A stretch of 20,802 bases of DNA from NCBI GenBank assembly GCA_003344405.1, contig NOWV01000181.1, positions 138,001 to 158,802 of the forward strand, in the 5' to 3' direction. A program made the position numbers and the translations under genes. This DNA comes from Trichoplax sp. H2 (Eukaryota). Below the pieces are notes generated by a model that saw nothing but the letters and a program-made list of their open reading frames with translations, made no database searches and was not told where the DNA came from. Shown in pieces: positions 926 to 20,702 of the stretch; the stretch's first letter is position 1, and the number at the start of each line of letters is the position of its first letter.

Positions 926-3900
926 ATGGATCCTGAATTTAAGAATCGTCTTGAAAAGAAACGCCGTAAAGTCCAAGATACCTTTGAATTTGAAGGATGT
1001 AAAGTTGGACGGGGTACTTATGGCCATGTTTATAAGGCCAAGATGAAAAGCAGGTAAACATGAAGACGATGCAATCGTCCTATCCTATAGCCAACCAATT
1101 TTCCTTCCATGGCTACTTTCTCCGTTCATAGTCGATACATTCCGTCAATAATAAATAATAATAATAATAATAATTAAAAAAGAGCGCTTAAAAAAAGGAC
1201 GGTCGATAGCATGATTTTAAAGTGTATCCATCTACCGTGCTTATTCCATCGGTATGATGCCAACAAAAGAGTCTTTTTCTTGCTGACAAGGAAGGAGTTT
1301 TTTCCAACGAGTTGCACAGTGTTGAAGATCCAATCGCTTGACATTGATAGCATGTTGTGACCAATAAATGTAATTTCTTTTTTATCGGATGGATAGTGGC
1401 AAGGAATATGCCTTGAAATTAATCGAAGGAAGTGGTATTTCCATGTCGGCCTGCCGTGAAATTGCTGTAAGTCATGACAACGTTGAATCATACTTTGAAA
1501 ACCGACCGTAGTCAATTTAATTTGTATTAGTAATGCATGACTTCAAGCATGATGCTGTTAACCAAGTTGTCATCTCGACTATTTCTTCCTTTTCTATTAC
1601 ATCCTTAGTTATTGCGAGAAGTCCATCATCCCAACGTCATCTCATTACAAGGAGTATTTCTAACTCATACCAATCGAAAAGTTTGGTTACTATTCGATTT
1701 TGCCGAGCATGATTTATGGGTAAGACAGGATGAACTAATCGAGTAGAGCCCAGGATAGCATAGCTCTTTCTACGATCATGTAATCGTTCTAGTTTGTCAA
1801 GAGCCATCTACGAAGGCCCAACGACAGTGCCTGCATGCAAATTTCGACTCGTTCTAGTCTAAAATACCCCAGATAAATACTTAACCATAATCTAGAATTC
1901 ACTAGTCGAATCCACAAGCAATTTTATGCATGACCTACATTCATCGCAAACAAATATTATGCCTGACCAAGACAGTCATGATCTTTTGCTAATTTTTCAT
2001 CCTATCTTTGACGTCCTGTTGCAATCCATCTTGCCACTGTCATTTATCATCTTCCTCATGAATATTCCGTTAATGCTTGTAATAGTATTTGTTATCATTG
2101 ACAGCGACCAAAGTATCCCTTTTTCGTTACATTCCTCGCTTCTAGTCATACCAAAAGTTTTCCATCGCTTTATTTGCTTCTAGGAATGCCCAGCTTTCCT
2201 TGACTAAATTGTAACAAATGAAGTAAAGAATACCAAACGTTGCTTCCCTTATTTTATAGGATTCTAAAAACTCGATCAATTGTGACTACATTCCAAACAG
2301 GAACTCATTTTATTACCATCATTAAATCAGCTGCAATAGCAATAACTGCTCACCTTGTCCTTGAATTAGTTCGGGCGCCATTTAATAACCAAGATTGTGA
2401 CCACGTTACGTTCCACATAGTCAGTGATTGCATCCATCAAAGACCTACAGAGGCAATTAACGTCCTTAGTCGTATCATCCATTTCATTTGGAAATGAAAT
2501 GGATGAATCTTCAAGTTCACAAACTAATCCTTGTGTCATGACATTCCATGAGTAAGCATACTTGTTAACTAGTAACTTGCACAGTTGTTGCAAAAGTATC
2601 TTAGCATAATAGATGCTGTAATCGTTGTTGATGAACGCTCTAGTAAAAATGCCTTAATTCGGTTAGACGCTAATCTCCAAAGAAATGTGTAGAAATGGAT
2701 TATCTTCTCCACTGAATATTGTATTAATATTACTTGTCTTTATTTGTCATGATGTATAGCACATCATCAAATATCATCGATCGAAAGCAGGTGATAAAGC
2801 AATCTCTCTCGATTCCAAAATGGTCAAATCTTTACTAAAGCAGATTTTAGAAGGGATACACTATTTACATGCCAATTGGATTTTACATCGTGATTTGGTA
2901 AGTTTGCTATAGTACGGCATAGGAAATCAATTCGTTCACAACGATGCTCTTTCTGTAACATAATATTCGATTGCATTGAAATAAGAAACCGGCCAATATT
3001 CTCGTCATGGGCGAAGGACCAGAAAGAGGAAGAGTCAAAATTGGTAATAAAGTGGAACTTATCAAGTACTTTGTACCAGTAAATTGTCTTTCTCAGCCTT
3101 GTTTTAATAACTACTGTCCGTATTGATCATAACAGCCGACATGGGATTTGCAAGACATTACTGGTCGCCTTTGAAACCCCTTGCCGAGCTAGATCCAGTC
3201 GTAGTGACATCTTGGTATCGAGCTCCTGAATTACTCCTGGGTGCAAGGCATTATACTAAAGCAATCGGTAAATTGATATAGCAGGTTTTGAGCTCTCTAA
3301 TTATAATCAGTAACTAGCTATTCATTAAAAGTTGATAATTGCATCGTAATACTGCTCACGCTACTCATCATAAATTGATTTCATAATCTGTTGTTCATTT
3401 TCTTCAACGACTGCAACCACTGTTAATGCGCTTACCTTTGAAATAGTTCTTATCGATTGCTTCCAATATCATTCACTTCCATTATCATATTCTTTTGTAG
3501 ACATTTGGGCTATAGGCTGTATTTTTGCTGAATTGCTTACTTCAGAGCCGATTTTTCATTGTCGACAAGAGGATTTTAAAACGAGCAACCCTTATCATCG
3601 CGATCAATTGGAAAGAATCTTTATGGTCATGGGATATCCGCATGGTATAACTTTTAAAATTGTTCTGAATTAAAATCAAAACAAATTTGCCATGTAGCTA
3701 TGTTTTTGAGTTGTGCTTATCCATGCATTAAATAACTATAGAAAAGGATTGGGAAGATATAAAAAAGACACCAAACTATGCTAAATTAGCGTCTGACTTT
3801 AGAAAAATTTCGTATGTCTAAAATCGATAGAATTCGAAATGAATAATTGTTGATATTGATTCTATGGTCCTTCTAATGCCTATTGCTATTTTCAAATTAA

Positions 3901-7261: not shown

Positions 7262-9821
7262 ATGAATTCAAAGGCAGTCAGTATGAGTATAACATTAACA
7301 ATCTTTCTAACAGGAACTTTTTGTTTCCCTACAGCAATAGGTGAGAATGAGAATTCAGTAATCCTGTAGAAATACGCTATCCAAATTGGAATGCTGTTAA
7401 GAATGCCATATAAGGTTGATAATGACGACGCATTAATAATCTGCTTGGAATTTCTTTTTAGCTCAATGCGATATCGCATTAAATTTCACCAAAGGAGAAT
7501 TTCACTCCATTGATTATCCTCAACATTATCCTGCTAAAAAATGTTCTTATACTATTCAAGCTCCTTCCGGTTATCATATTATATTGAATTGGCAAAGTTT
7601 TCACGTAGGATTGCCGAAGCAAAATGATCGCTGTCCCAGCGATGAAGTTGCAGTTTATAATGGCCGAATTAGTTTACACCAAGGCCGAGTAACAATGTGC
7701 GGCTATGATGGAGAAAGTGTTACATCAAGTGGAAATATTTTAACAGTGGTTTTATCTGGCTACAGCAATCGAAGGTATACAGGATTTCTGGCTAAATATT
7801 TCATAGGTAAGTTATTTTAATCCTCATAACGATATACACACTTGTAAGTATTTGGCCTTTCATTTCGTTTTGGAAGCATTGATGATTGCTTTGAAACAAA
7901 GACTGAGTATATTTAAGTTCATTTACATTTAATATTTCTAATATACGTATCAATGCAGAAGGGTGTGGGGTTTTTCGTATGGATTTTCTGTATTGTGAGC
8001 TGTACCCCTCTCGTTTTACAAGATACTGGAAATTTAACAAATCAGATATATTTTATAAAACGGCTATTCTATAAGCTACACATACTGGTATATACGACTA
8101 CAGAATTTTTAGAGTTACATCACATAAATTGATGAACAATTTTGCGAAATGTAGCCATAATTAGCTAGAAACTGTGAGAATTACATTAATTCAAATTGTT
8201 CGACTTTCTAATGGTTGTTGTTATAGTCAATGAACCAAATATAAGGCCATTGAATATGTGATAGCTATCAGTACTTGATCTGAACCTTAATAGCAATGGC
8301 AATCCTTTCAGTATAACAGTCTCTATTTATCCATTTATGAATGATTTTTAAGTTACTATTTAATTATCTTCTCTGACAAATTAACAAGAGCTTCATGAAC
8401 AAATTCCAGAAATGATTTCGGCCATGCTCTATAGTAAATCCGGCCTTCAGTAAAATGATATTACTAATCTTCTTAGTATGCAATTTCTAAGAAGATTCAG
8501 CTTAACTTTTCCCTTAAACATAACCACAATTGAAATAGTATTGCATAGATAGATAATAATTATTAGACTGCATTACATAGTTTAAATCGGTAACAATAAA
8601 GCGGATAATGCCGATCTGGTCTATTATGACTATCCCTTGCTTCACTGCTTTGGGTTATTTACACAGAGTAGTTTATAAATAATAATTGAGATTTACAGAG
8701 CCTCGTACATAATTGAAATATTTGTAATGAAGCGTCGGTTCGTTATATATTACAGGTACCGTAATCTCCTAATTAACAGTATTTACTATAGCAATATACG
8801 GTAGCAATTTAGGCGTAATAATTTCAGTATTTGCTAAACTGCATATCAACTTAATTCGGGTTTCAGTTAGCCTAAGCAAGATTTAGTACAAATTCGAGGA
8901 TAATACAAATACTGTACTAAATTTCGAATTGTTTTTTTTAACTTTATTTCAGAACGCATTAAATGTGCTAGTATGACCATAACAACAGATATTGGAATGC
9001 TTTCTGGCCCGCTAGCTTATCCTTGGGATTGCCTATATACGATACAGCTGGCTTCAAATCGAAATGTTAACTTTGAGTTATTGCATCATAACGTTTCATT
9101 GCGATCTAGCCAGTCCGCCTGCCTATCTTACGTTGCACTATACATTAACAATTTCACACCCAAGAACGAAATCTATCAGTTTTGCTTTGATCATATGTTT
9201 CCTCCTATGTATTCTTCGAGTTCCAATATCGCATTTGTACGATTTCGTAGTAAGGAGCAGCAAAATCCATTCTACGGGCTAACGGTCTTATATCGCTCAC
9301 GTAAGTTGAAAGTTCAATTGCAGCAAAAGGTGCCATATTTATTCTCTAGTATTGTACGTATATAATATGCATAATTTTGAAGTTATAACTACAGGAATTT
9401 TTCAATAATTCAATTTCATTGGCTATTAAATGAGATATAGAATAAAGTATAAAAGTAAAATTCTGATACATTTGTACAAGCAAAACCTCACAGCTATAGA
9501 AATTTAGTACAGTGTATTTTATTGAATTATTTATTTAAAGCTCAAAATGACATTTTCTTGTGCGTTGCTATTATTACTAGCTCTACACTTTGATAGCATA
9601 ATCCACTAATTATTGCTATTGCTTTTGTAGATTTTGTTACTCATTCTTCTCCTACAAAAAAAACATCGGTGCCAGAACATAACATAGCTGTTAGAATTGT
9701 CTTAATCATAGCTATAGCATCAGTAGCATTGACCGCTATTTGCTGCTCTGGATATCATGGGCGAAAATACTACAACAGACGTATTGAAAATCCTGAAGAA
9801 GTAGAGCCACTACAGCAATGA
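7262..9821 (+). CDS. Type-I membrane protein with signal peptide, two CUB domains, one TM helix and a short basic cytoplasmic tail (about 320 aa). Exons: 7262..7340 (signal peptide), 7462..7806 (CUB1, 345 nt), 8953..9300 (CUB2, 348 nt), 9631..9821 (TM plus tail, stop TGA 9819..9821). All introns are phase 1.
   Basis: Exon 1 MNSKAVSMSITLTIFLTGTFCFPTAI(A) is a hydrophobic signal peptide with donor gtgaga. Exon 2 AQCDIALNFTKGEFHSIDYPQHYPAKKCSYTIQAPSGYHIILNWQSFHVGLPKQNDRCPSDEVAVYNGRISLHQGRVTMCGYDGESVTSSGNILTVVLSGYSNRRYTGFLAKYFI has the CUB signature: four Cys in C-x25-C...C-x19-C spacing, YP motif, VYNG, CG, GF..Y. Exon 3 ERIKCASMTITTDIGMLSGPLAYPWDCLYTIQLASNRNVNFELLHHNVSLRSSQSACLSYVALYINNFTPKNEIYQFCFDHMFPPMYSSSSNIAFVRFRSKEQQNPFYGLTVLYRS is a second CUB. 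Exon 4 HFVTHSSPTKKTSVPEHNIAVRIVLIIAIASVALTAICCSGYHGRKYYNRRIENPEEVEPLQQ* has a 21-residue hydrophobic TM followed by a basic stop-transfer. Acceptors are tttttag, atttcag and ttttgtag; donors are gtaagt. Frames were verified against the ORF track (7584 and 8973 ORFs are in frame). Confidence 0.8.
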
Positions 9822-9862
9822 GTGACAATAGCTATAGCTCTAGAGATGCGAGAAATTTTAAC

Positions 9863-9868
9863 AATAAA
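9863..9868 (+). promoter_or_regulatory. Candidate polyadenylation signal AATAAA 42 nt downstream of the gene A stop codon
   Basis: Sequence ttttaacAATAAAgaaagg. Canonical hexamer at a plausible distance, but AT-rich DNA generates such hexamers by chance. Confidence 0.3.
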
Positions 9869-12073
9869 GAAAGGCATATCAAAAATTTCTATCGACGAAC
9901 TTATGGCAATATATCATGATTCGGAAATTGACTAATGAGTAAAAATTTTTCATATAATAATGGCATATCACTTATGATGGTTTGCCGATCGAACTGATGG
10001 AGATTATACTCTATAAAACAATACGGGTTTGCCTTCATTATCTTTATAATATCATTTTTGGTTTGGTAGTAATCATGTAAATGCTACCGTTAATTACTGA
10101 CAGATTGAGTCGCTTGCTGCACTTCACGATAGGCCCATTTGGAAATATTTAAATTCTAGATTTAATAAAACTAGACTACTATATGCATACTAAATAGTAA
10201 GCTTATTAGTAATACAAGTACTAATCTTGGTACTATTTGAGCTGTATATGTAGTTTATAACAAGAATTATAGGCATGAGATTTTTCCCCAAACATAATAA
10301 TTTATAAAATTATGGCTGAATTATATTATCCGAACACAATTAAGTTAAGATATCTAGTACTTATTAAAAGATATGAAAACCCTTTAGACTGTCATCAATT
10401 ACTATGCCGGGTCTGAAAGTACAATAATATTGCGAATTTTTTTGTCTATCAACGGTAATTAAACTCGGCAAGTAGATGATACTAAATTTTGCTAGCATAT
10501 TGTAATACTACTTACGGATAATTCTATAAATTTAAACTTATAGTACTCTTTAAAATTTTCGACGGTAATTTTTAAACATGCAGATAAAGTAATATCATAT
10601 TATAGAAAATAATTAATATCTAATATTTACCAGAATGCTTATATATGCACCTTATTTATTTATCTTATAAAACTAATCGTTGATGAAACATATAATAAAT
10701 TAATCTAAAGTAAAAGCACCTGAGTTATTCCAGAAGAACTAATAGACAAATTATATACTAAATTTTAAAGAAATCTTTATTATAGGATTAGAATAGTATG
10801 CCTTTAAGCATTGTGTTAGATATTAATTACAGTTTTTATTAGACAATGTATAGATTAGTATAACTACGCTTTAATTTATAGCATTTATAATACTGTAGTT
10901 TCTTAATTGTGTTATTTATAAACTCACTACTATATATTCTTATAGAGGGCAGATTGATAACTTGGAACACCAAAATTTATACTAGCTCTATACAAAATAC
11001 ATATAAAAATTTTTAAGAGCACTCATTCTCGTTTTACTACTGTTATACCTTAACATTGATAGTGATACATAAAATTTATTCGTAATTTTTATATGTAAAA
11101 ATATTGACCAAATAGAATCGAATAATTGCAATAGTAACTCATAGTGAGATAGCTCAATATTTTGCATAACCTGTTACTTCAGTGATGTCATAGAGTGAAC
11201 TATTTATAACTTTACATTCGTATTGTTTGTTTGCATACCTTTATTAAATCCAATAAAAGCTTTGAAAAAATTAAAATATATCGGCATGACAACGTTGAAC
11301 GTAATCTGCGTTACTTGTATCCTATTAATTCAGGTCGAAAGAATGTGTTATATATCTGCTACTTATATTCAAGGAGGCCTTTTTCCTTCCTTTACCTTAA
11401 GGTGAGTTAATTCTGTTTGGGATTACGTTACTTCTGGACGTGCATGCGCATTCATTTCCGGTTCCTAGCTATATCATAATAATGCCGTATCATACCTATA
11501 GCAGCCTATAACTAACTAAAGTTTGTAACGAAAAAACTAAAACTGCGAGCTTACTAGTAATGATATTCAACTACTTTCAATCCACTATCATTAGAGGGCT
11601 GCAGTACCTGCACATCTCCCTTTTACTATTAGCTAATCAACGAAAGTAGATTAAATACCAAGCAGTCTATTGCCACATGAATATCAATTAAGATTGCGTA
11701 CGTAACGTTACAAACAGATACACTTATGTCATAAAAATATCTATTTAATACTCTAAAAATATAATAATTAACATTAAATTTCTAGTTGTCAAGTGATAAT
11801 TATGTTACTGCTAGTTAGCGCAAGTTACACCTTAGGACAGAAATAAATATTATCTCACTTTGTCGACATAACTTTATGTCGCTTTTTAAAGGTTGCTTAA
11901 ATTGCTTTAATTACATGTACTGCATTTAGAAAACTCTGTATCAGATTTTTTACCCTATTAGCTTAATCTTTACCTATCACCTATTCATTCACTACGGTAC
12001 CCTTTTCTGCTTTTGAATTTAATTTTGAAGACATGAGAATGATTTAAAATACTAAGATCAGATGAAAGTAGCT

Positions 12074-12080
12074 TATAAAT
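12074..12080 (+). promoter_or_regulatory. Candidate TATA box (gctTATAAATttt) about 80 bp upstream of the CUB gene B ATG
   Basis: TATAAAT consensus; distance to the ATG at 12160 is compatible with a short 5' UTR. No transcript data. Confidence 0.25.
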
Positions 12081-12159
12081 TTTCTGATGCTGCAAAATAA
12101 TTACATTTCCTAACACTAATTAGGCGATTTTATTTATGTTTTAGAAGCAGATATCGAAA

Positions 12160-14462
12160 ATGAAGGTTGTCTTATTAACATTATTGTTCTTTATTACCAT
12201 TGCCACGACCGTTCAGGGTGAGTTTTATAATTAAATAATCTCAATTAACCATTTTCTTTATTTTATTCTCAGTTACTCTAAGTTACAACTAATTAAAGAC
12301 CGACAACCTTTGTATAGCGTTAGGACTAGCGTCATTTATTTATGGACTTTTCTCTCAGTCCGTTGTAGCTATGTTCTGTTTAATTTAATCATCGGTGTTT
12401 GAGTAACCTTTTATTTCAATTCTTAATAGCAAGTTGCAATATCACACTAACATCAAGGAGTGGCAGTTTTAAAAGCCCATATTATCCTCAAATGTATAAT
12501 CGCACATATTGTTACTACTCCATTTTCGTTCCCAGTGGCTACATAATTCGATTACATTGGCAGACATTTGATGTTGGCACACCTCAGACTTTCAGCAAAT
12601 GTCATGGCGATAAAGTAACAGTTTATAATGGATACAAAAGACCAGGTACTAAGAAAGTGGAGCTGTGTGGTCAAAAGAAAAAGTCTTTTTCTTCAACATC
12701 CAATCGTCTTACGGTTGTGTTCGATGGACGCACTAGTCGCAAATATCGAGGCTTCTATGCAGTTTATGATACAAGTAAGTCTTCCTCTCTTCATCATCAA
12801 CAAAATTAATAGAAATTATACTTAACAATTTTAATTAAAACAAGGTAACACAAATTATACTATTTGTTCTGTCCTTGTAGTAACCCCTATCGTAATGAGC
12901 AGCTACTAATTAAACTTATTCCAACAATTTAACTATATAGCTGTTATTTAGAATTTGACTTTCTTTGCAAGTAAAACTTTTTGGTATGATATTCGGCTTG
13001 GATTTTAATTGTAATAGAATTAATGCGTACTTTAGATACCCCGATGGCACGGTATGATTTTAAAATGATAGATTATTTTTTAAATTAGCAGCCAACCAAT
13101 TTACTATATATTGGCCAACTGCAGCAGGACAAATTCATTATTAACTACCGTACCTACGCAAAGATTTCATTGAAGCACAAATCTAACAGCACGTATTAAT
13201 TTCGATGGATCTTAATCTCAAAGAGCAAATACAATTGATCGTTCTTGGACCATCTTTAGAGAACGACATTGCATCTAATACCTGATAGTAACAATTAAAT
13301 TGATGCCTTACTTTCCTATTTGATAGATTAGTATCAAACTATAAAATCTTCCTGCTAACGACTGAGGGTCGACATTAAAGCCGAGTATTAAATAACAGTA
13401 ACTTGCAATTATGGCTAAATTTTAAGATCGATGTCTAGCTTGTACTTATGTAGTAGGATAGATAGAATAACAAGGTAGCTTCCATTAATAATAATATAGA
13501 AATGCTAAGTTGTAATAGCATTTGCTTATATTACACAAACTAGATTTATATGGCTGCAATGCATGCTGAACTTGTTGATTGAATAGACAGAAATAGCTAA
13601 ACTCTTAATTATTATCCGGCTAAAGAATTTTATCGTTTATATTAAGCTTTACCATCAATCACCGGCACTCCGAAGAGACCTGTTACTCCTTCTCGTGTGA
13701 GTACCTCCTCTTATATCTCCAAGACAGTAATTTTCAAAAATTCAACTTGTACCCGCTATCAATGGTACCATAATACACCACAAGGAAAAGTCCCCTACAA
13801 AATAACGATTACTTGTACGAAAGGTAAATTTTATTCTTTGCTTCTTAACTTAGTCAATCACAAGGACGCATTCAATTGCTATTCAAAGATACAATTCTGC
13901 AGTGACTACAGGATTAAAATTGGCTAAAATTTCCTGGTACTGTTACGGTTAATTGGATTAAATTATAAATTCTAGTTTTTCAAAATCAATTTTCTCAGTA
14001 TACTTATAATCAAGCTTACTCAGTTAGTAAAAACTTTTAAATGTTACGTATAGCTACAGGATAAGCAATTAGTACCTTTGATAAACTTGAATAACATTCA
14101 GACCGATGATATTTCAATCAGAATATGGACGATTTAAAGTAATAACAGTCATCGTACGATATAGTTGCACCCTTTACAACGTTTTGTTCGTCGTTTTAAG
14201 TACAAATTTGTTACCTGCGCGAGTTGCATCTTCAGCAAATTTCCATACAAAGCAAAACTATACTCAGATTCTACTGGTTGCGATATTAGTGTTAACGCTT
14301 TCTTACTATTTGTAATTATTTTTGTGTTACATGATTTCTATTATAGGTGTGAGCGTGGTTACCATTATTGCTGTATCGGTTAGTATTTTCATTTGTGCAA
14401 TAATTGCAGGAATTTTTTACACTATTAAAAGACGACGAGGACCTCATTTTGTTAGGCTATAA
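12160..14462 (+). CDS. Paralogous type-I membrane protein: signal peptide, one CUB domain, a Ser/Thr/Pro-rich linker with a 2-Cys motif, TM helix and a short basic tail (about 232 aa). Exons: 12160..12217, 12430..12774 (CUB, 345 nt), 13647..13823, 14347..14462 (stop TAA 14460..14462). All introns are phase 1.
   Basis: Exon 1 MKVVLLTLLFFITIATTVQ(A) with donor ggtgagt. Exon 2 ASCNITLTSRSGSFKSPYYPQMYNRTYCYYSIFVPSGYIIRLHWQTFDVGTPQTFSKCHGDKVTVYNGYKRPGTKKVELCGQKKKSFSSTSNRLTVVFDGRTSRKYRGFYAVYDT is a CUB with all four Cys, and is clearly homologous to gene A CUB1 and gene C CUB1 (shared WQTF.VG, C.GD.V.VY.G, CG, GF.A.Y). Exon 3 TLPSITGTPKRPVTPSRVSTSSYISKTVIFKNSTCTRYQWYHNTPQGKVPYKITITCTK is bounded upstream by an in-frame TAA immediately before the AG acceptor; its phase-1 entry matches the exon 2 donor acaa|gtaagt and it ends aaag|gtaaat. 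Exon 4 GVSVVTIIAVSVSIFICAIIAGIFYTIKRRRGPHFVRL* is a TM helix plus KRRR stop-transfer. Exon 2 is well supported. The choice of exons 3 and 4 rests on frame compatibility and on the architecture shared with gene A. Confidence 0.65.
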
Positions 14463-14779
14463 AGCGAGTGGACCACATCAGCACATAAAATTTGCTGGAA
14501 TACACAACATCCTTATATACAGTTGTTTCCAATTAGCGGTAACAATTACGAATATGATTATGTTATTAGTGCAAAAGATGCGCCGGTTTTAGTGTCGTAG
14601 GAAACTACAGCGATCGCAGCATTTCGTTCTTATTCGGAGTCTTGTTAATTAATAATAGATGTTATTCGTAATTCTCGTTTACAATCTTCGGCTTCTACAG
14701 TATACATACTAAGAATATAAGTATTGAAAGCAATGTAATAGCGATTGTCTATTAACTTGAAGTACTAGTCTGCATTTGG

Positions 14780-15720
14780 GTAGGTTCTAGATAATGAAAA
14801 TTCAGAAATTACTGTATCCCGTAGAATTTCGTTCTAATGAGTTTACTAAGTTTAGTAAGTGGATCGATGTTATTCATAACTATTAATTGCGATCTTTGGA
14901 TTTGTAAACAAAGTTAGAATACAAGTAGTTAAAACAAGACAATTCGCAACAGCAGAGATTTATGTTAACGAAAACCATGCAATAAACTATTTTATTCCAA
15001 ATCGTCTGTGATTAGAATTTGTTGGAGAATTCCAAAAAAGCAGATCTATTACAACATATTTGGTAAATATCGATGGCAATATGTTTTATATCTCCAAAAT
15101 TAGCGTAGAACTATGCAAACCGAAGCGTACACGTAGTTAAAGTAATGCAAGAGAGGTTTTTGTGAGCGAAAAACCAATAATAAACTGCTTGTATTCAGTA
15201 TCGTTAGTGATTAAAATTTGTTGAAGAATGCAAAAGAAGCAGGTTTATGGCTCCTTATTTAGGCAATATCAATAGCAATAGTAATCATAACCTCAAAATC
15301 AGTCTAGAACATTGTGAACTTAAGGGATACAAATAGTTAAAGCAACGCAACAGATATTATCTTCTTTGTAGTGGAGATTATAACCTGCTGTTAGAGATGT
15401 TTGTTCACGATAGACTGGAAAATACAGTAACCACAGAATTTCCGTCTTATACTTAGTCTAGTACGTGAATCGATGTTGATCATAACTTTTATATGTGATT
15501 TGCAGCTTTTAAACAAGGTAAGTAGATGACCAGTTATAGCAACGCTGCAGAAATTGTCCCCTTGCATTTGATAGTCTGCAACTGGAGAAGTTTATATTAA
15601 CGAGAATCCCGTAATAAACCATTTATTTCGAATTATTTGTGATTTCAATTTGTTGGAGATTCCAAAAGAAGCACATTCATAACACCTCATTTAGGCAATA
15701 TAAACAGCTGTATGCTTAAC
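14780..15720. repeat. Satellite-like diverged tandem repeat family, unit about 200-205 bp (units begin near 14928, 15134 and 15335). The third unit is interrupted by an insertion that itself resembles the segment just upstream (about 14790..14930).
   Basis: Recurring collinear blocks: agtagttaaaacaagacaattcgcaacagcagagatttatgttaacgaaaaccatgcaataaactattttattccaaatcgtctgtgattagaatttgttggagaattccaaaaaagcagatctattacaacatatttggtaaatatcgatggcaatatg // cgtagttaaagtaatgcaagagaggtttttgtgagcgaaaaaccaataataaactgcttgtattcagtatcgttagtgattaaaatttgttgaagaatgcaaaagaagcaggtttatggctccttatttaggcaatatcaatagcaatag // ...cccgtaataaaccatttatttcgaattatttgtgatttcaatttgttggagattccaaaagaagcacattcataacacctcatttaggcaatataaacagctg. 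Also gaatttcgttctaatgagtttactaagtttagtaagtggatcgatgttattcataact matches cagaatttccgtcttatacttagtctagtacgtgaatcgatgttgatcataact. Confidence 0.75.
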
Positions 15721-16589
15721 ATCATAATAATCATTCTTGAACATTGCAAGTATTAAGAATTGCTCCGCGACGAGTAATATGCATTAACACATAGACTTCT
15801 CAACTCTCATGTGAAGACAAGAAGTGATCGTACTGATGTTGTACCCGACTTTGTATACCATATCTACGCATACCATAATCGTATGATACTCCCACATTGT
15901 ACAGTAATCTATTCCATAAAGATACATGCATCATAAACATCATGAAGTCATATTACAATTTCAACGAGTGCTGGTAACTGTCACAACCCTCACTTGTGGC
16001 AAAGGAAAGTAAAGAACTCTAGTGTAGTTACTTAAAACTTGGGCTATTTCTCCCAGTACTTTCAGTTTCTATGAGAGAAGTATTTGAGAACTCGATTTCT
16101 CGGCTGATCTCCATAGACAACTGACTAATTATTACACCATTCTTCACGATATGAGTCTTGCCGTTTCTTGAGCAATTACTAACTTTATTCTACAAACACA
16201 CGCGCTTAAATAGGTTTCTACAGTGAATTCCAATATTAACGAGTGAGAATTCATGCTTTACAAGTTACATTAATTAGTATAATACCATTACTAAATATAC
16301 ATGTCGATATTCTCAGACTTAGATAGCTACAAGCTATCAGGTGTTAAGACGCTTAACCTTCGTCCATATACGGCTCAATTTTTAGAGATTAACACACCTT
16401 ATAAACCTACAGTAAATTAACTGCTAACAACTTCTATTTTTATCTCATTTCTATCATCCTATTATCAGCTACAAGCGCATTAAACATAGCACATAACCTT
16501 ATCTTAACTATTCATAAGCATTCACTAATCTACAGTTACTTAATTAGTAACGGCGTACCGTGACAGTAACATAACTTTATTGCTTGTTA

Positions 16590-16850
16590 CTCTACACATT
16601 TTACAACTACTGACGTAACAGCAAGTAAAAGCAAACAAGTAATTAAAGCGACAAAATAGAGATTATCTTCTCTGTGCTTGGAATGATAATCTGTAACTGG
16701 AAAGATTCTTGTCAACAAGAAGGCTGTAACAAAGTGTTTTATTCTGAATTGTTTGCGATTAGAATTTGTTGGAAAATTCAGAAGAAGCAGATTTACATTG
16801 CCCAATTTGGTTAATATCAATAGTAACGTGTTTCATAACTTTTTCTCTCC
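16590..16850. repeat. Additional dispersed copy of the same repeat unit of about 200 bp, roughly 900 bp downstream of the main array
   Basis: gtaattaaagcgacaaaatagagattatcttctctgtgcttggaatgataatctgtaactgg...aacaaagtgttttattctgaattgtttgcgattagaatttgttggaaaattcagaagaagcagatttacattgcccaatttggttaatatcaatagtaacgtgtttcataac aligns with the units at 15335 (aatagttaaagcaacgcaacagatattatcttctttgtagtggagattataacctgctg) and at 14980..15080. The minus-strand ORF 16587..16820 lies entirely within this repeat and is not regarded as coding. Confidence 0.65.
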
Positions 16851-17680
16851 CAAATTTTGAATATTCTCATACTAGTGTATCACTTATAGTAACATAACCT
16901 AACAATAAAAGTAGCCTATTAATTTGCTTATCTACATTAATGCCCATGCCATTCGATAAAAAGAATCATACAAGCTCCAAAGTATGATTACAATTAACGC
17001 ACGCGGCTATCACAGATATACAACTTTCATCTTGCAGTAGTCAGCAATCCATCAAGAATAATATATGCACAAATGCATGCATGAATGGAATGATCGCTGC
17101 TATTTCACAGGTATGCAACTATTAAAGTATTAGTTAAACAATCCATAACCATCATCAAATAGAACTACCTTGGAATGATAACAATTCTATCCCCGATAAT
17201 TATGACAAGCATGATGAATTGATGATGTCAGTGAGAGAATGCGCAGAATAATCTTTTCATCAAATAGAAAAAATAAATCTGTGGTTGGCATTCTAGTGGA
17301 TATATGATCTTTGTTAAAGAGCTCAACAGGACTTAATTTTAGCGATTCATATGTTAATTAATGCTTGCCACATTGATCAGTAACGTCGTTATTATTACCC
17401 TATTGACAGTTATTAACGAAGGCTATACAGTAGATTCATTAAAGGAAAAGAAAAATTGCCGTCATTCTATTCAAGAAGCTCTCTATTAAGGCTAGGAAGG
17501 ATAGTTAACGGAACTTTTTATCTAAGTTATCAGGAAATTTCGTGATAGACATACGATTTGGTAAGTTGAAATTCTCTTACTCGGTTTACGGATTCCTTCT
17601 CGGTTATCATGATGCAACAATGAATAGTGAAAGATATTGTCCACGGCAACGATTGTGCCTCATGCTGGTCAAATCGAGCA

Positions 17681-18050
17681 GTATCTTTAATCATTGAGCA
17701 TAACTTTTAGCACTCTTTGGGAAAGTAAAAATTATTTTTAAGTCACAATTGAAACAATATCTTTCAAAATCTTCCTTAGCTACTTAAAGTAAGATCATGA
17801 TATAGTTTACTAACTAGTAAAGCTATCTTAGTAAAAGATAGAGTCCTTAGGATCGAACATGATGGATGCTTGTCAACCCTAGTATCTTTAATTAAGCATT
17901 GAATATAAAACTTTAGCACTCCTTTAGGAAAGTGAAGTTTATTTTCAACTCAAGCTAAAAATATCATCTTTCAGTGTCGTTCTTAGCTACTAAAAATAAG
18001 ACCATAAAGCAGTTCACTATCTCATGAAGCTATCAGATTTTAGTCTGGCA
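17681..18050. repeat. Diverged tandem duplication, unit about 200 bp, two copies (17681..17880 and 17881..about 18050), upstream of CUB gene C
   Basis: gtatctttaatcattgagcataacttttagcactctttgggaaagtaaaaattatttttaagtcacaattgaaacaatatctttcaaaatcttccttagctacttaaagtaagatcatgatatagtttactaactagtaaagctatcttag versus agtatctttaattaagcattgaatataaaactttagcactcctttaggaaagtgaagtttattttcaactcaagctaaaaatatcatctttcagtgtcgttcttagctactaaaaataagaccataaagcagttcactatctcatgaagctatcag. About 75% identity by eye, collinear. Confidence 0.75.
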
Positions 18051-18962
18051 AATGATTTCTAAAATTTTAATGTATAGGTTACGATTAATATACGTAAGTT
18101 TTTTAGGTGTAGAATATCATGGACAGAAGTCAACAGGTCGCTCGCTTTACATCATCCTTCGTCTAATTACTTGCCATATACGTCTAATAGACTGTAATTT
18201 CCACCATAAAATTAGTTTATTGCAATGGGTTAAGTCTTAATCATGACAACAAATTAACTTTCGTATCAAACTTAGTGATCACTGCCAATTTCTATAGGTT
18301 TATTTGAAAGAATCGTAGATTTAAACCAATCAAGGAGACAGCTTCGCTTATATTTCACAGCTAGTAAAATCTTATCAGGTTCCTTTACCATCAGTCATTC
18401 TACGTCAAACGATGCCTTAAATGATATATTACTTTGAAGAAGGTTTACAAAGGTTCATAAGTACACCTTTTAGGCTGTAATTTAAGACAAAGATAGATAG
18501 TGTCCTCAAATATAACCTTTACAGTTTCTATTGCAAAGGATTCTGATGGATGGCAAGTCAAATTTTGAGAAAAAGATGTTCGAAATGGCATCTTATAATG
18601 CCTTTTCTCATGCTTACTAAAAGCATATATGCATATGCCTAAGCATCTTATACTTAGAGGCTCAGCAAGATTCAACTCAAGATAGTAAAAGTAGATATCG
18701 AAAACAGTTACGCAAATTGTATCAGAAATAGTGGCTAGTATGCCGATTTTGACAAATTATGATAGGCTTAATAAATATCCATAAACTTCTCTCTATACCA
18801 GTAATAACGTAATAAGCAAAGAAAGAACTAAAAAAAGACGCTATATTTTTATTTACTCTTATTCCTTCCATACCATTTTATCGATATCGAACTTAAAATC
18901 AAATTGTTTCTCTAAGAGTTGAATTCTAACTTTTCCCCAGAATACAAAAAACCCTTTCCGCC

Positions 18963-20702
18963 ATGAAATTAATTTCAATTGCTTTCATAACTGCCATCAT
19001 GATGGCCTGTGTCGACGGTAAGAAGTTAATTACAAGCAATAATGCTCTTATTACATTGCAATACTTAATCTTATTTTTAGTCTATAGGATGATAAACTGA
19101 AATTATGGCTTACAATCGTTATAATACACTACCTATTTTTTATTTGATTAATGATGGTAGCTAGTTGCAATTTCAAGTTGACATCGAACTCCGGATCCTT
19201 CCATAGCCCAAATTATCCAAATAATTATGCTAGTGGAAAGTGTGAATATAAAATTACAGTTCCTAAAGGTAAAGCGGTCCAGTTAACCTGGAAAACTTTC
19301 AATGTTGGTCCTTCCAAGGTGAATAAGAAGTGTCCTGGAGATACAGTTTCGGTCTATGATGGCACTAAGGACAAAAATAATGGCATTGACATTCTGTGTG
19401 GGCAAGAAATTCAATCAATTACATCGAGTGGCGGTAACCTGACTATCATTTTAGATAGTAAAAGCGACAAAAAATATAAAGGTTTTTCAGCTTCCTATAC
19501 TACAAGTACGTGAATTCTTCTAATATTTATATATAGATTAAAACCTACTAACAGATATAATTTAATTCTCAAGCCTTGTAAAACTTCTACATAACATGTA
19601 TAATGCATACATATACCGCACATATTTATTGTAAATACAGTATATGGTACATTGCCTATAAAGTAACGTATGACATATACAGTTTATAAGTAAATTTTTG
19701 TAATGTTATATTGATAGAAACCTACTAACACGTATAATTTCACTAAAAACCTTACATGCAGCGTAAATCGGCGACTGAATTTCTTTTATTCTCTTTAAAA
19801 TCACAGTTGACGTAGCCTGTAATGGTATGACTTTATCGACCGATTCAGGATATATTGCCTCTCCCAATTATCCTAACCCATATCCAATTAATTCAAATTG
19901 TTTGTATAAAATACAACTGCCACCTAGGAAAGTTATAGCTATTGGCTGGTTAGGCTTTGATATTCCTTTTGGCCAACCATCAAATTGTCAAGACTACGTG
20001 GAAGTTTATGATAAAGAACCCACAGAAAGCAGTAAAGTTTATCGCTATTGTGACCCTGGATATTATCCACCCCAATTTACCTCTAGCAGCAATGTAGCCT
20101 ATATAAAATTTGTTAGTTCCAGTACCAAAAACAAGAATCACAAAGGTTTTATTGCTTATTATCGATCAGGTGTGTTAAGCAAACACAGTGCCTATATTCA
20201 TAATAGTTAGTCTTTCGAAGTATATCAGGCGTGATTGCTCATTAAAAGCTAATGGAAAAGAAATTTAGCTGATGTATAGATAATTGCAAATATACTCGTT
20301 TTATTTATTAACCTTGTAATCTACCGTCTATTAAAATTAGGTACCAGACAAACCTGCAATATCAATTATGGCACTGCGACAGGAGTCGTTACAGTTCCTA
20401 ATGTACCATCACTAGTTGGTCAAAATTTGGACTGTAAAATTAACATCAACGCGAAATTGTCTGATATAATTAATTTTAAATGGATGGAATTTGGCTCTGA
20501 TTTATTCTCTAAGCCCGACTCTTGTCAAAATTTTATCGAAATTTACGGTGGTGACATGACTGCATCTAATTTAGTCTCGAAGAAATGTAATTCTAAAACA
20601 GGTTCTAGCGTCAGCATGAATGGTACAACGGCTATTGTGCATTATAAAATCAAAAATTATAACACCAAAAAAAACTTTCGCTTAGTTTATCAAGGAGGTT
20701 AG
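18963..20702 (+). CDS. Third paralog: signal peptide plus three CUB domains, possibly 3'-incomplete in this window. Exons: 18963..19017 (signal peptide), 19161..19505 (CUB1, 345 nt), 19807..20169 (CUB2, 363 nt), 20341..20697 or 20702 (CUB3; either stop TAG at 20700..20702 or GT donor at 20698 continuing beyond the window).
   Basis: Exon 1 MKLISIAFITAIMMACVD(G) with donor gtaaga. Exon 2 ASCNFKLTSNSGSFHSPNYPNNYASGKCEYKITVPKGKAVQLTWKTFNVGPSKVNKKCPGDTVSVYDGTKDKNNGIDILCGQEIQSITSSGGNLTIILDSKSDKKYKGFSASYTT has the same 345-nt length and the same phase-1 borders as the CUB1 exons of genes A and B, with donor acaa|gtacgt. Exon 3 IDVACNGMTLSTDSGYIASPNYPNPYPINSNCLYKIQLPPRKVIAIGWLGFDIPFGQPSNCQDYVEVYDKEPTESSKVYRYCDPGYYPPQFTSSSNVAYIKFVSSSTKNKNHKGFIAYYRS is homologous to gene A CUB2 (SMTITTDIGMLSGPLAYPWDCLYTIQL), with donor tcag|gtgtgt at the same YRS position. 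Exon 4 GTRQTCNINYGTATGVVTVPNVPSLVGQNLDCKININAKLSDIINFKWMEFGSDLFSKPDSCQNFIEIYGGDMTASNLVSKKCNSKTGSSVSMNGTTAIVHYKIKNYNTKKNFRLVYQGG has four Cys in CUB spacing. Frames agree with the ORF-track ORFs at 19151, 19827 and 20427. Confidence 0.75.

What the first reader, a model, noticed from the sequence alone, without database searches (positions are those of the whole stretch)
7462..20697. One CUB domain per exon, all phase 1-1, with an exactly conserved 345-nt first CUB exon; paralogs differ by whole-exon gain or loss
Every internal intron in the three CUB genes is phase 1. The junctions are 7340/7462, 7806/8953, 9300/9631, 12217/12430, 12774/13647, 13823/14347, 19017/19161, 19505/19807, 20169/20341 and the putative 20697 donor. 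The first CUB exon is 345 nt in all three genes: 7462..7806, 12430..12774 and 19161..19505. Symmetric 1-1 exons can be duplicated or deleted without breaking the frame. That fits the CUB counts of 2, 1 and 3 in adjacent paralogs and the replacement of CUB2 by a Ser/Thr/Pro-rich exon in gene B. This is a clean, directly observable example of exon-shuffling modularity within one tandem array.
Basis: seen in the sequence. Interest (0 to 1): 0.5.

Follow-up and report, generated by a model that had tools for sequence, protein, structure and literature searches.

The report
Trichoplax CUB genes: one-domain, phase-1 exons
Three neighbouring membrane-protein genes of the simple animal Trichoplax each encode every CUB domain on its own in-frame exon and differ by loss of whole exons, which is real but is a textbook case of exon-shuffling gene architecture.

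Summary
The window is Trichoplax sp. H2 DNA. It holds three tandem, same-strand genes, deposited as RDD38347.1, RDD38346.1 and RDD38345.1. The deposited proteins thread onto exactly these junctions. Each CUB exon alone matches the Pfam CUB model nearly end to end. The first CUB exon is 345 nt in all three genes.

- The CUB domains group by position (CUB1, CUB2, CUB3), so the paralogs most likely come from a three-CUB ancestor. Each shorter gene is explained by one deletion of adjacent exons.
- Gene B's Ser/Thr/Pro-rich exon is not a replacement for CUB2. It is a conserved two-cysteine stalk exon shared with gene C and with a fourth gene, D, just past the window.
- Gene D's first CUB exon is 348 nt, so 345 is not universal.
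- Gene B's deposited model adds two upstream introns that would be phase 2 and 0 if translated.

The same intron positions and phases occur in a divergent placozoan ortholog. A fish CDCP2 gene has the same layout, and amphioxus and snail CUB genes also flank CUB domains with phase-1 introns. This is the well-known class 1-1 module architecture, so interest is low.

The parts
7262..7340 (+). Gene A exon 1: start codon and signal-peptide-like segment, 79 nt, ending in phase 1. The intron splits the Ala codon just before the first CUB cysteine.
   Evidence: Identical to RDD38347.1 (P0014).
7462..7806 (+). Gene A CUB1 exon, 345 nt, phase 1-1.
   Evidence: Pfam CUB positions 1-110/110, E = 3e-16 for the exon alone. 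The junctions are the only usable ones inside open frame 7440-7817.
8953..9300 (+). Gene A CUB2 exon, 348 nt, phase 1-1. This is a divergent CUB.
   Evidence: Pfam CUB 26.8 bits, above the 21.4 cut-off. It groups with C2 and D2.
9631..9821 (+). Gene A last exon: short Ser/Thr/Pro linker, transmembrane segment, cytoplasmic tail and stop codon (9819-9821). Gene A has no stalk exon.
   Evidence: for the exon. for the hydropathy peak of 2.64 at residues 273-301.
11286..11401 (+). Upstream exon 1 of the deposited gene B model (RDD38346.1). Its intron would be phase 2 if translated. It is probably 5' UTR.
   Evidence: The 5' UTR reading is an inference from the canonical signal peptide that starts at Met54, as in A, C and D.
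11786..11813 (+). Upstream exon 2 of the deposited gene B model, 28 nt. Its intron would be phase 0 if translated.
12160..12217 (+). Gene B signal-peptide coding segment, 58 nt from the ATG, ending in phase 1. In the deposited model the exon starts at 12145.
12430..12774 (+). Gene B CUB1 exon, 345 nt, phase 1-1.
   Evidence: Pfam CUB positions 1-110/110, E = 4.5e-19.
13647..13823 (+). Gene B stalk exon, 177 nt, phase 1-1. It encodes a Ser/Thr/Pro-rich linker followed by a conserved 34-residue two-cysteine module (IFKNxTC..WY..P.GxV..C).
   Evidence: Homologous to the stalk exons of C and D. No Pfam family matches it.
14347..14462 (+). Gene B last exon: transmembrane segment, KRRR tail and stop codon.
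18963..19017 (+). Gene C signal-peptide exon, 55 nt, ending in phase 1.
   Evidence: Matches RDD38345.1 (P0017).
19161..19505 (+). Gene C CUB1 exon, 345 nt, phase 1-1.
   Evidence: Pfam CUB positions 1-110/110, E = 4e-23.
19807..20169 (+). Gene C CUB2 exon, 363 nt, phase 1-1.
   Evidence: Pfam CUB positions 1-110/110, E = 2.5e-21.
20341..20697 (+). Gene C CUB3 exon, 357 nt, phase 1-1. The donor follows 20697. The stalk and TM exons lie beyond the window.
   Evidence: Pfam CUB positions 1-110/110, 31.6 bits. P0001 and P0017 continue across this donor into the stalk exon. In T. adhaerens the stalk is at L001 12122-12244 and the TM exon at L001 12928-13079. That splice is also found in RDD35969.1.

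Best explanation
The region is part of a tandem, same-strand array of at least four placozoan genes: A, B and C in the window, and D just downstream. They encode small single-pass membrane proteins with CUB ectodomains.

Each gene is built from modules, each on its own exon and all separated by phase-1 introns:
- a signal-peptide exon,
- one exon per CUB domain,
- a stalk exon (absent from A),
- a transmembrane and tail exon.

The array arose by duplication of a whole gene that already had signal peptide, CUB1, CUB2, CUB3, stalk and TM. Because every internal exon is symmetric (1-1), a recombination or deletion with both breakpoints in introns removes whole exons without changing the reading frame. 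One such deletion of adjacent exons explains gene A (CUB3 and stalk lost). Another explains gene B (CUB2 and CUB3 lost).

Shown here: the junctions, the phases, the match of domains to exons, the positional homology of the domains, and conservation of the intron positions in another placozoan and in bilaterian CUB genes.

Inferred: the ancestral architecture, the direction of change (loss), and the recombination mechanism.
For: - Junctions and phases.
- Agreement with deposited protein models made by MAKER with assembled transcripts. The annotation method is described in PMC6057997.
- Exon equals domain.
- Purifying selection on the exons. Gene A is intact in T. adhaerens, with three differences, all synonymous.
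- Gene D has exons of 55/348/363/366/120/143 nt, all phase 1.
- Positional clades: CUB1 81%, CUB2 62%, CUB3 100%.
- The stalk exon is shared by B, C and D.
- A divergent placozoan ortholog of D (L006, about 50-70% amino-acid identity) keeps the CUB2|CUB3, CUB3|stalk and stalk|TM introns at the same codon positions, in phase 1.
- Fish CDCP2 has a 67-nt signal-peptide exon ending in phase 1, followed by 348-nt and 354-nt CUB exons, both 1-1. In amphioxus and snail genes the CUB domains are flanked by phase-1 introns.
- General principle of class 1-1 modules, the phase-1 bias at signal-peptide cleavage sites, and exon shuffling reported in T. adhaerens: PMC8001218.
Against: - I read no cDNA or RNA-seq reads directly. 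Support for the junctions comes from deposited models and from conservation.
- Bootstrap support for branching within the CUB1 clade is weak (38-65%), so the order of the gene duplications is not resolved. The direction of change (loss or gain) rests on parsimony.
- No relic pseudo-exons remain in the introns of A or B to prove deletion.
- The deposited gene B model includes two upstream introns that are not phase 1 if they are coding.
Confidence: 0.85

Rival explanations
1. The paralogs differ by exon gain. The ancestor had one or two CUB exons, and genes C and D acquired extra CUB exons and the stalk by internal exon duplication or insertion.
For: Symmetric 1-1 exons permit insertion as readily as deletion (PMC8001218). 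The branching order within the CUB1 clade is poorly supported, so a C+D sister relationship cannot be excluded.
Against: - A2 groups with C2 and D2, not with A1.
- CUB3 of C and D is only 15-23% identical to every CUB1 and CUB2, so it is not a recent internal duplicate.
- The stalk is present in B as well as in C and D.
- A gain history needs at least three events. The loss history needs two deletions, each removing adjacent exons.
Confidence: 0.1
2. The gene models are partly wrong. The true transcripts could use other splice sites or join neighbouring genes, so the uniform phase would be an artefact of choosing junctions that keep the frame open.
For: I examined no transcript reads. The 2008 JGI models for B and C differ from the H2 models at their ends. 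The deposited gene B model has an odd N-terminal extension.
Against: - Three independently deposited H2 models use exactly these junctions.
- Open frames bracket the exons within a few codons.
- Exons are about 7-fold less diverged than non-exon sequence.
- The same junctions are conserved in a divergent placozoan contig.
- Each gene has its own signal-peptide and transmembrane exon and its own stop codon.
Confidence: 0.03
3. Genes A and B are decaying, truncated copies (pseudogenes in the making), not functional shortened paralogs.
For: They are the shorter members. A2 is a weak CUB (26.8 bits). Gene A is not called in the 2008 T. adhaerens annotation.
Against: - Both have intact reading frames, canonical splice sites, signal peptides and transmembrane exons.
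- The gene A protein is identical in T. adhaerens, and its three nucleotide differences are all synonymous.
- All four conserved CUB cysteines are kept.
- Both are modelled as genes in H2.
Confidence: 0.05

Closest known systems
Class 1-1 mobile modules of metazoan extracellular proteins (Patthy's exon-shuffling rules)
   Same: The domains are bounded on both sides by phase-1 introns. The signal-peptide exon ends in phase 1 at the predicted cleavage site. The proteins are extracellular beta-rich domains on a membrane protein. Module number varies in frame between paralogs (PMC8001218).
   Different: Nothing in principle. Here no intron lies inside any CUB domain, and the variation seen is loss within a tandem array. 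It is not shuffling between unrelated genes.
Vertebrate CDCP2 (CUB domain-containing protein 2), read here from the Cyprinodon variegatus gene
   Same: It has a signal-peptide exon of 67 nt ending in phase 1, then one CUB per exon (348 and 354 nt, both 1-1), and it has a C-terminal hydrophobic stretch that looks like a membrane anchor, seen by eye only. It is about 32% identical to gene C.
   Different: After the CUBs, CDCP2 has a different region, and its later introns are phase 0. There is no positional orthology between its CUBs and the placozoan CUB1, CUB2 and CUB3 classes. It lacks the placozoan stalk module.
Amphimedon (sponge) aggregation-factor gene cluster
   Same: It is a tandem cluster of paralogous genes for extracellular modular proteins in an early-branching animal. 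Almost all of its introns are phase 1 (154 of 155), and domain content differs between paralogs (PMC5400394).
   Different: The domains are different (Calx-beta, Wreath, VWA/VWD), and many span three exons. The genes are far larger, and an allorecognition role has been proposed for them.
Cubilin, neuropilin, PCPE-1 and MASP CUB domains
   Same: These are the closest solved relatives by sequence. Cubilin CUB5-8 gives E = 2e-49. The placozoan domains keep the four conserved cysteines.
   Different: Those proteins combine CUB with EGF, F5/8C, NTR or protease domains. The placozoan proteins have only CUBs, a short stalk and a membrane anchor. In the amphioxus and snail genes read here, each CUB is split by an extra internal intron.

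Membership tests
CUB domain (Pfam PF00431) | Sequence match to the family profile above the curated cut-off | tested here: met
   Whole proteins score 80.3, 66.7 and 170.4 bits against a cut-off of 21.4. Each of the six CUB exons in the window passes alone, at 26.8-82.2 bits. D3 alone is below the cut-off (15.4 bits) but is 41% identical to C3.
CUB domain (Pfam PF00431) | Four conserved cysteines in the usual spacing (two disulfides) | tested here: met
   All nine domains align with four invariant Cys columns. The disulfide bonding itself was not tested.
Class 1-1 exon-shuffling module | Both flanking introns in phase 1 | tested here: met
   All six CUB exons and the stalk exon in the window are phase 1-1. 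So are three CUB exons and the stalk exon in gene D and the CUB3 and stalk exons of the divergent ortholog L006.
Class 1-1 exon-shuffling module | Exon boundaries coincide with domain boundaries | tested here: met
   The Pfam CUB match starts 2-5 residues after the start of the exon translation and ends 2-3 residues before its end in five of the six window exons. The exception is A2, where the match is partial.
Class 1-1 exon-shuffling module | The same domain type is flanked by phase-1 introns in unrelated genes and other phyla | tested here: met
   Fish CDCP2, amphioxus DMBT1-like and snail tolloid-like 2 genes, mapped exon by exon.
Tandem paralog array produced by gene duplication | Adjacent, same-strand genes whose corresponding parts are each other's closest relatives | tested here: met
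   A, B, C and D all lie on the + strand within about 23 kb. Positional clades: CUB1 81%, CUB2 62%, CUB3 100%. The stalk exon is shared by B, C and D.
Type I single-pass membrane protein | N-terminal signal peptide and one C-terminal transmembrane helix | tested here: inconclusive
   Kyte-Doolittle 19-residue windows give one strong C-terminal peak in each protein (2.6-2.8). B and C also have an N-terminal peak (2.05), while A's N-terminus is weaker. I ran no dedicated signal-peptide or topology predictor, and there is no experiment.
NETO / SOL-1 / LEV-10-type CUB auxiliary subunits of ion channels (a lead recalled from memory) | Physical association with, and modulation of, a ligand-gated channel | not testable with these tools
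   The only resemblance is the architecture of CUBs followed by a membrane anchor. None of these proteins appeared among the sequence hits.

The most novel reading that the evidence does not exclude
The 34-residue, two-cysteine stalk exon (IFKNx[ST]C..WY..PxGxV..C, with a conserved N-glycosylation sequon) may be a placozoan-restricted class 1-1 module with no described family. In a profile search of 1.84 billion representative proteins it matched only genes B, C and D and one divergent placozoan contig. It has no Pfam match.

On this reading the array is a lineage-specific receptor family that is being diversified by exon deletion. In H2, gene C also appears with two very different transmembrane exons, which could be alleles or alternative exons. 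One is in RDD38345.1, on the 160-kb contig. The other is in RDD35969.1, on a 4.6-kb contig. They are about 35% identical.
Probability: 0.3. Interest if true: 0.25.

Novelty: already known. Interest (0 to 1): 0.12.

Why it matters
It adds little that is new. Phase 1-1 CUB modules and phase-1 introns at signal-peptide boundaries are classical evidence for exon shuffling in animals, and exon shuffling has already been reported genome-wide for Trichoplax (PMC8001218). The three genes and their exon models are already deposited.

The locus is a tidy teaching example. It shows positional homology of domains across four tandem paralogs, and each shorter paralog is explained by one in-frame deletion of adjacent exons.

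Finding the same layout (signal-peptide exon, then one CUB per 1-1 exon) in a placozoan and in a fish CDCP2 gene shows how old or recurrent this design is. The small stalk module is a minor lead for anyone cataloguing placozoan-specific extracellular modules.

Tried and rejected
1. I first assumed the window was identical to T. adhaerens scaffold DS985264.1 and merged them by exact match. That failed. The window is Trichoplax sp. H2, 97.8-99.7% identical to T. adhaerens, with a 590-bp indel at 15978-16566.

2. I looked up the H2 proteins to read H2 DNA beyond the window's end. They are not on record. The 3' end of gene C and all of gene D were therefore read from T. adhaerens.

3. I searched the introns and intergenic DNA for relic CUB or stalk pseudo-exons with family-specific HMMs on six-frame translations. 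Nothing scored below E = 0.1, so deletion cannot be shown directly.

4. I tested whether the placozoan CUB1, CUB2 and CUB3 classes are orthologous to particular CUBs of fish CDCP2 or the amphioxus and snail genes. They are not: the fish and amphioxus CUBs group by species, and none of the bilaterian CUBs joins a placozoan class.

5. I tried to date the duplications from nucleotide alignments of the 345-nt exons. Identity is 51-53% overall and 37-45% at third codon positions, against 27% expected at random. The sites are close to saturation and give no usable date.

6. I looked in T. adhaerens for the transmembrane exon of the H2 gene C model. It is absent. Only a 35%-identical counterpart is present.

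7. Full-text searches did not return a paper that explicitly lists CUB as a class 1-1 module. I therefore tested the point directly on three bilaterian genes instead of citing it.

8. Two of the six hits in the stalk profile search (P0019, P0022) are repeat-rich proteins, and I set them aside as spurious.
Full report
**What the window is.** The sequence is AT-rich (about 33% G+C) and has spliced genes. A protein search with the gene C model returned a 100% identical Trichoplax adhaerens protein. Searches with A and B returned 100% identical Trichoplax sp. H2 proteins from a 160-kb contig. The window aligns to T. adhaerens scaffold DS985264.1 at 97.8-99.7% identity, with one 590-bp indel. The window is therefore Trichoplax sp. 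H2. The three genes are deposited as RDD38347.1 (A, 320 aa), RDD38346.1 (B, 284 aa) and RDD38345.1 (C, 460 aa).

**Checking the observation.**
- The exon lengths are 79/345/348 for A, 58/345/177 for B and 55/345/363/357 for C. Each first exon leaves one base over and every later exon is a multiple of three, so all ten introns are phase 1.
- The spliced reading frames are open. They end at stop codons at 9819-9821 (A) and 14460-14462 (B). Gene C runs off the window.
- Threading the deposited H2 proteins onto the window by exact translation reproduces exactly these junctions. That annotation was made with MAKER using assembled transcripts (PMC6057997). I could not see per-gene transcript evidence.
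- Stop codons bracket every exon closely. For example, the open frame around A's first CUB exon is 7440-7817, against an exon of 7462-7806. Few alternative GT or AG sites exist, and the in-frame ones would also give phase 1.
- Between H2 and T. adhaerens the predicted exons differ at 0.21% of sites and all other aligned sequence at 1.41% (Fisher p = 4e-8). In gene C the figures are 2/1120 for exons and 15/615 for introns.

**One CUB per exon.** Pfam finds 2, 1 and 3 CUB domains in A, B and C. Translated alone, five of the six CUB exons in the window match Pfam CUB positions 1-110 of 110. The sixth, A2, is a weaker partial match (26.8 bits, cut-off 21.4). The domain match begins 2-5 residues inside each exon and ends 2-3 residues before its end. 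All nine domains, including those of gene D, keep the four conserved cysteines. The first intron of each gene splits the alanine codon just before the first CUB cysteine, at the end of the signal-peptide-like segment. Hydropathy gives one strong C-terminal membrane segment per protein.

**Beyond the window.** In T. adhaerens, gene C continues with a 123-nt stalk exon and a 152-nt transmembrane exon, both entered in phase 1. That splice is present in the deposited H2 protein RDD35969.1.

A fourth gene, D, follows on the same strand. Its exons are 55/348/363/366/120/143 nt, again all phase 1. Its CUB2-CUB3-stalk-TM junctions match RDD35854.1. The array therefore has at least four members and 16 introns, all phase 1. 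The 345-nt length is shared by A, B and C but not by D.

**How the paralogs are related.** The CUB domains group by position, not by gene:
- A1, B1, C1 and D1 are 31-46% identical to each other.
- A2, C2 and D2 are 28-39% identical.
- C3 and D3 are 41% identical.
- Domains of different positions are 15-35% identical.

With bilaterian CUBs added as outgroups, bootstrap support is 81% for the CUB1 class, 62% for CUB2 and 100% for CUB3.

Gene B's Ser/Thr/Pro-rich exon ends in a 34-residue two-cysteine segment that is 44-46% identical to the stalk exon of C and also matches that of D. It is therefore the family's stalk exon, not a substitute for CUB2.

The most economical history is an ancestor with signal peptide, CUB1, CUB2, CUB3, stalk and TM, duplicated as a whole gene. 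One deletion of adjacent exons then produced A (CUB3 and stalk lost), and another produced B (CUB2 and CUB3 lost). This is an inference by parsimony. Branching within the CUB1 class is weakly supported, and no relic exons remain in the introns. The duplications are old: the three 345-nt exons are only 51-53% identical in nucleotides and 37-45% at third codon positions.

**Conservation elsewhere.** A profile of the stalk module, searched against 1.84 billion representative proteins, found only B, C, D and one 75-residue open reading frame on a 3.8-kb metagenome contig. That contig (30% G+C) encodes an ortholog of gene D at about 50-70% amino-acid identity. Its CUB2|CUB3, CUB3|stalk and stalk|TM introns lie at the same codon positions, all in phase 1. 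Its exons are 360, 120 and 143 nt.

I also mapped three bilaterian homologs exon by exon:
- Fish CDCP2 has a 67-nt signal-peptide exon ending in phase 1, then 348-nt and 354-nt exons, each holding one CUB, both 1-1.
- In an amphioxus DMBT1-like gene every intron I mapped is phase 1, and each CUB occupies two exons.
- A snail tolloid-like gene has its first CUB flanked by phase-1 introns, with an internal phase-2 intron.

**What it is and how it works.** This is the classical class 1-1 module architecture of animal extracellular proteins. Patthy's review notes that shuffled extracellular modules are overwhelmingly class 1-1, that phase-1 introns are enriched at signal-peptide cleavage sites, and that exon shuffling has been detected in T. 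adhaerens (PMC8001218). A comparable all-phase-1 tandem cluster is known in a sponge (PMC5400394). Because each internal exon is symmetric, intron-to-intron recombination removes or adds whole domains in frame. The array shows the outcome of that process. The mechanism itself is inferred, not observed.

The chance probability of five independent ancestral introns all being phase 1 is about 0.002-0.006. The known bias toward phase 1 in such genes already explains the pattern.

**Function of the proteins.** Function is not addressed by any test here. The closest solved relatives are cubilin CUB5-8, PCPE-1, neuropilins and MASP-2. The names on the H2 records (cubilin, DMBT1, CUZD1) are best-hit labels, not orthology.

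**Caveat on gene B.** The deposited model starts 53 residues upstream of the signal peptide, in two extra exons (11286-11401 and 11786-11813). Their introns would be phase 2 and phase 0. A, C and D all start directly with a signal-peptide exon, and an internal second hydrophobic segment would misplace the CUB domain. I therefore think these exons are 5' UTR or an annotation artefact. That is an inference.

**Verdict.** The phenomenon, the genes and their exon models are already known, so novelty and interest are low.

Noticed in passing
window 3374-3670 (+), best match about 3494-3631: An exon of a cyclin-dependent kinase 8 ortholog lies upstream of gene A. Its translation matches human CDK8 residues 217-264 at E = 3e-27 and the Pfam protein-kinase model. 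The T. adhaerens annotation has a 380-residue kinase gene at this place.
   Followed up: partly
window 14993-16862, between genes B and C: There are four diverged copies (60-72% identical) of a repeat of at least 123 nt, at 14993, 15192, 15624 and 16740. The window also carries about 590 bp at 15978-16566 that is absent from T. adhaerens. The nature of the repeat is unknown.
   Followed up: no
window 7262-9821 (gene A); L005 5977-8537: Gene A is intact in T. adhaerens and encodes an identical protein, with three synonymous differences. No gene is called there in the 2008 T. adhaerens annotation.
   Followed up: yes
Beyond the window's end; L001 12122-13079 and proteins P0017, P0018: The two deposited H2 models for the 3' end of gene C carry very different transmembrane exons after an almost identical stalk (one residue differs). 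RDD38345.1, on the 160-kb contig, has ATVTLPTWAIVMIG.... RDD35969.1, on a 4.6-kb contig, has GHGIKGTLPLWAFV..., and this is the version present in T. adhaerens. They are about 35% identical. They could be divergent alleles or tandem alternative exons.
   Followed up: partly
window 13721-13822; L001 12140-12241 and 20985-21083; L006 2285-2383: The stalk exons share a 34-residue module with two cysteines and a conserved N-x-S/T sequon. It has no Pfam match. Among 1.84 billion representative proteins it has no relatives outside placozoan sequences.
   Followed up: partly
L001 12455-12463: The 2008 JGI model of gene C (TRIADDRAFT_61597) ends in a tiny final exon that adds two residues and a stop. 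It misses the transmembrane exon at L001 12928-13079, which the H2 model RDD35969.1 uses. The JGI model of gene B (TRIADDRAFT_64360) also skips the signal peptide and the first part of CUB1.
   Followed up: yes
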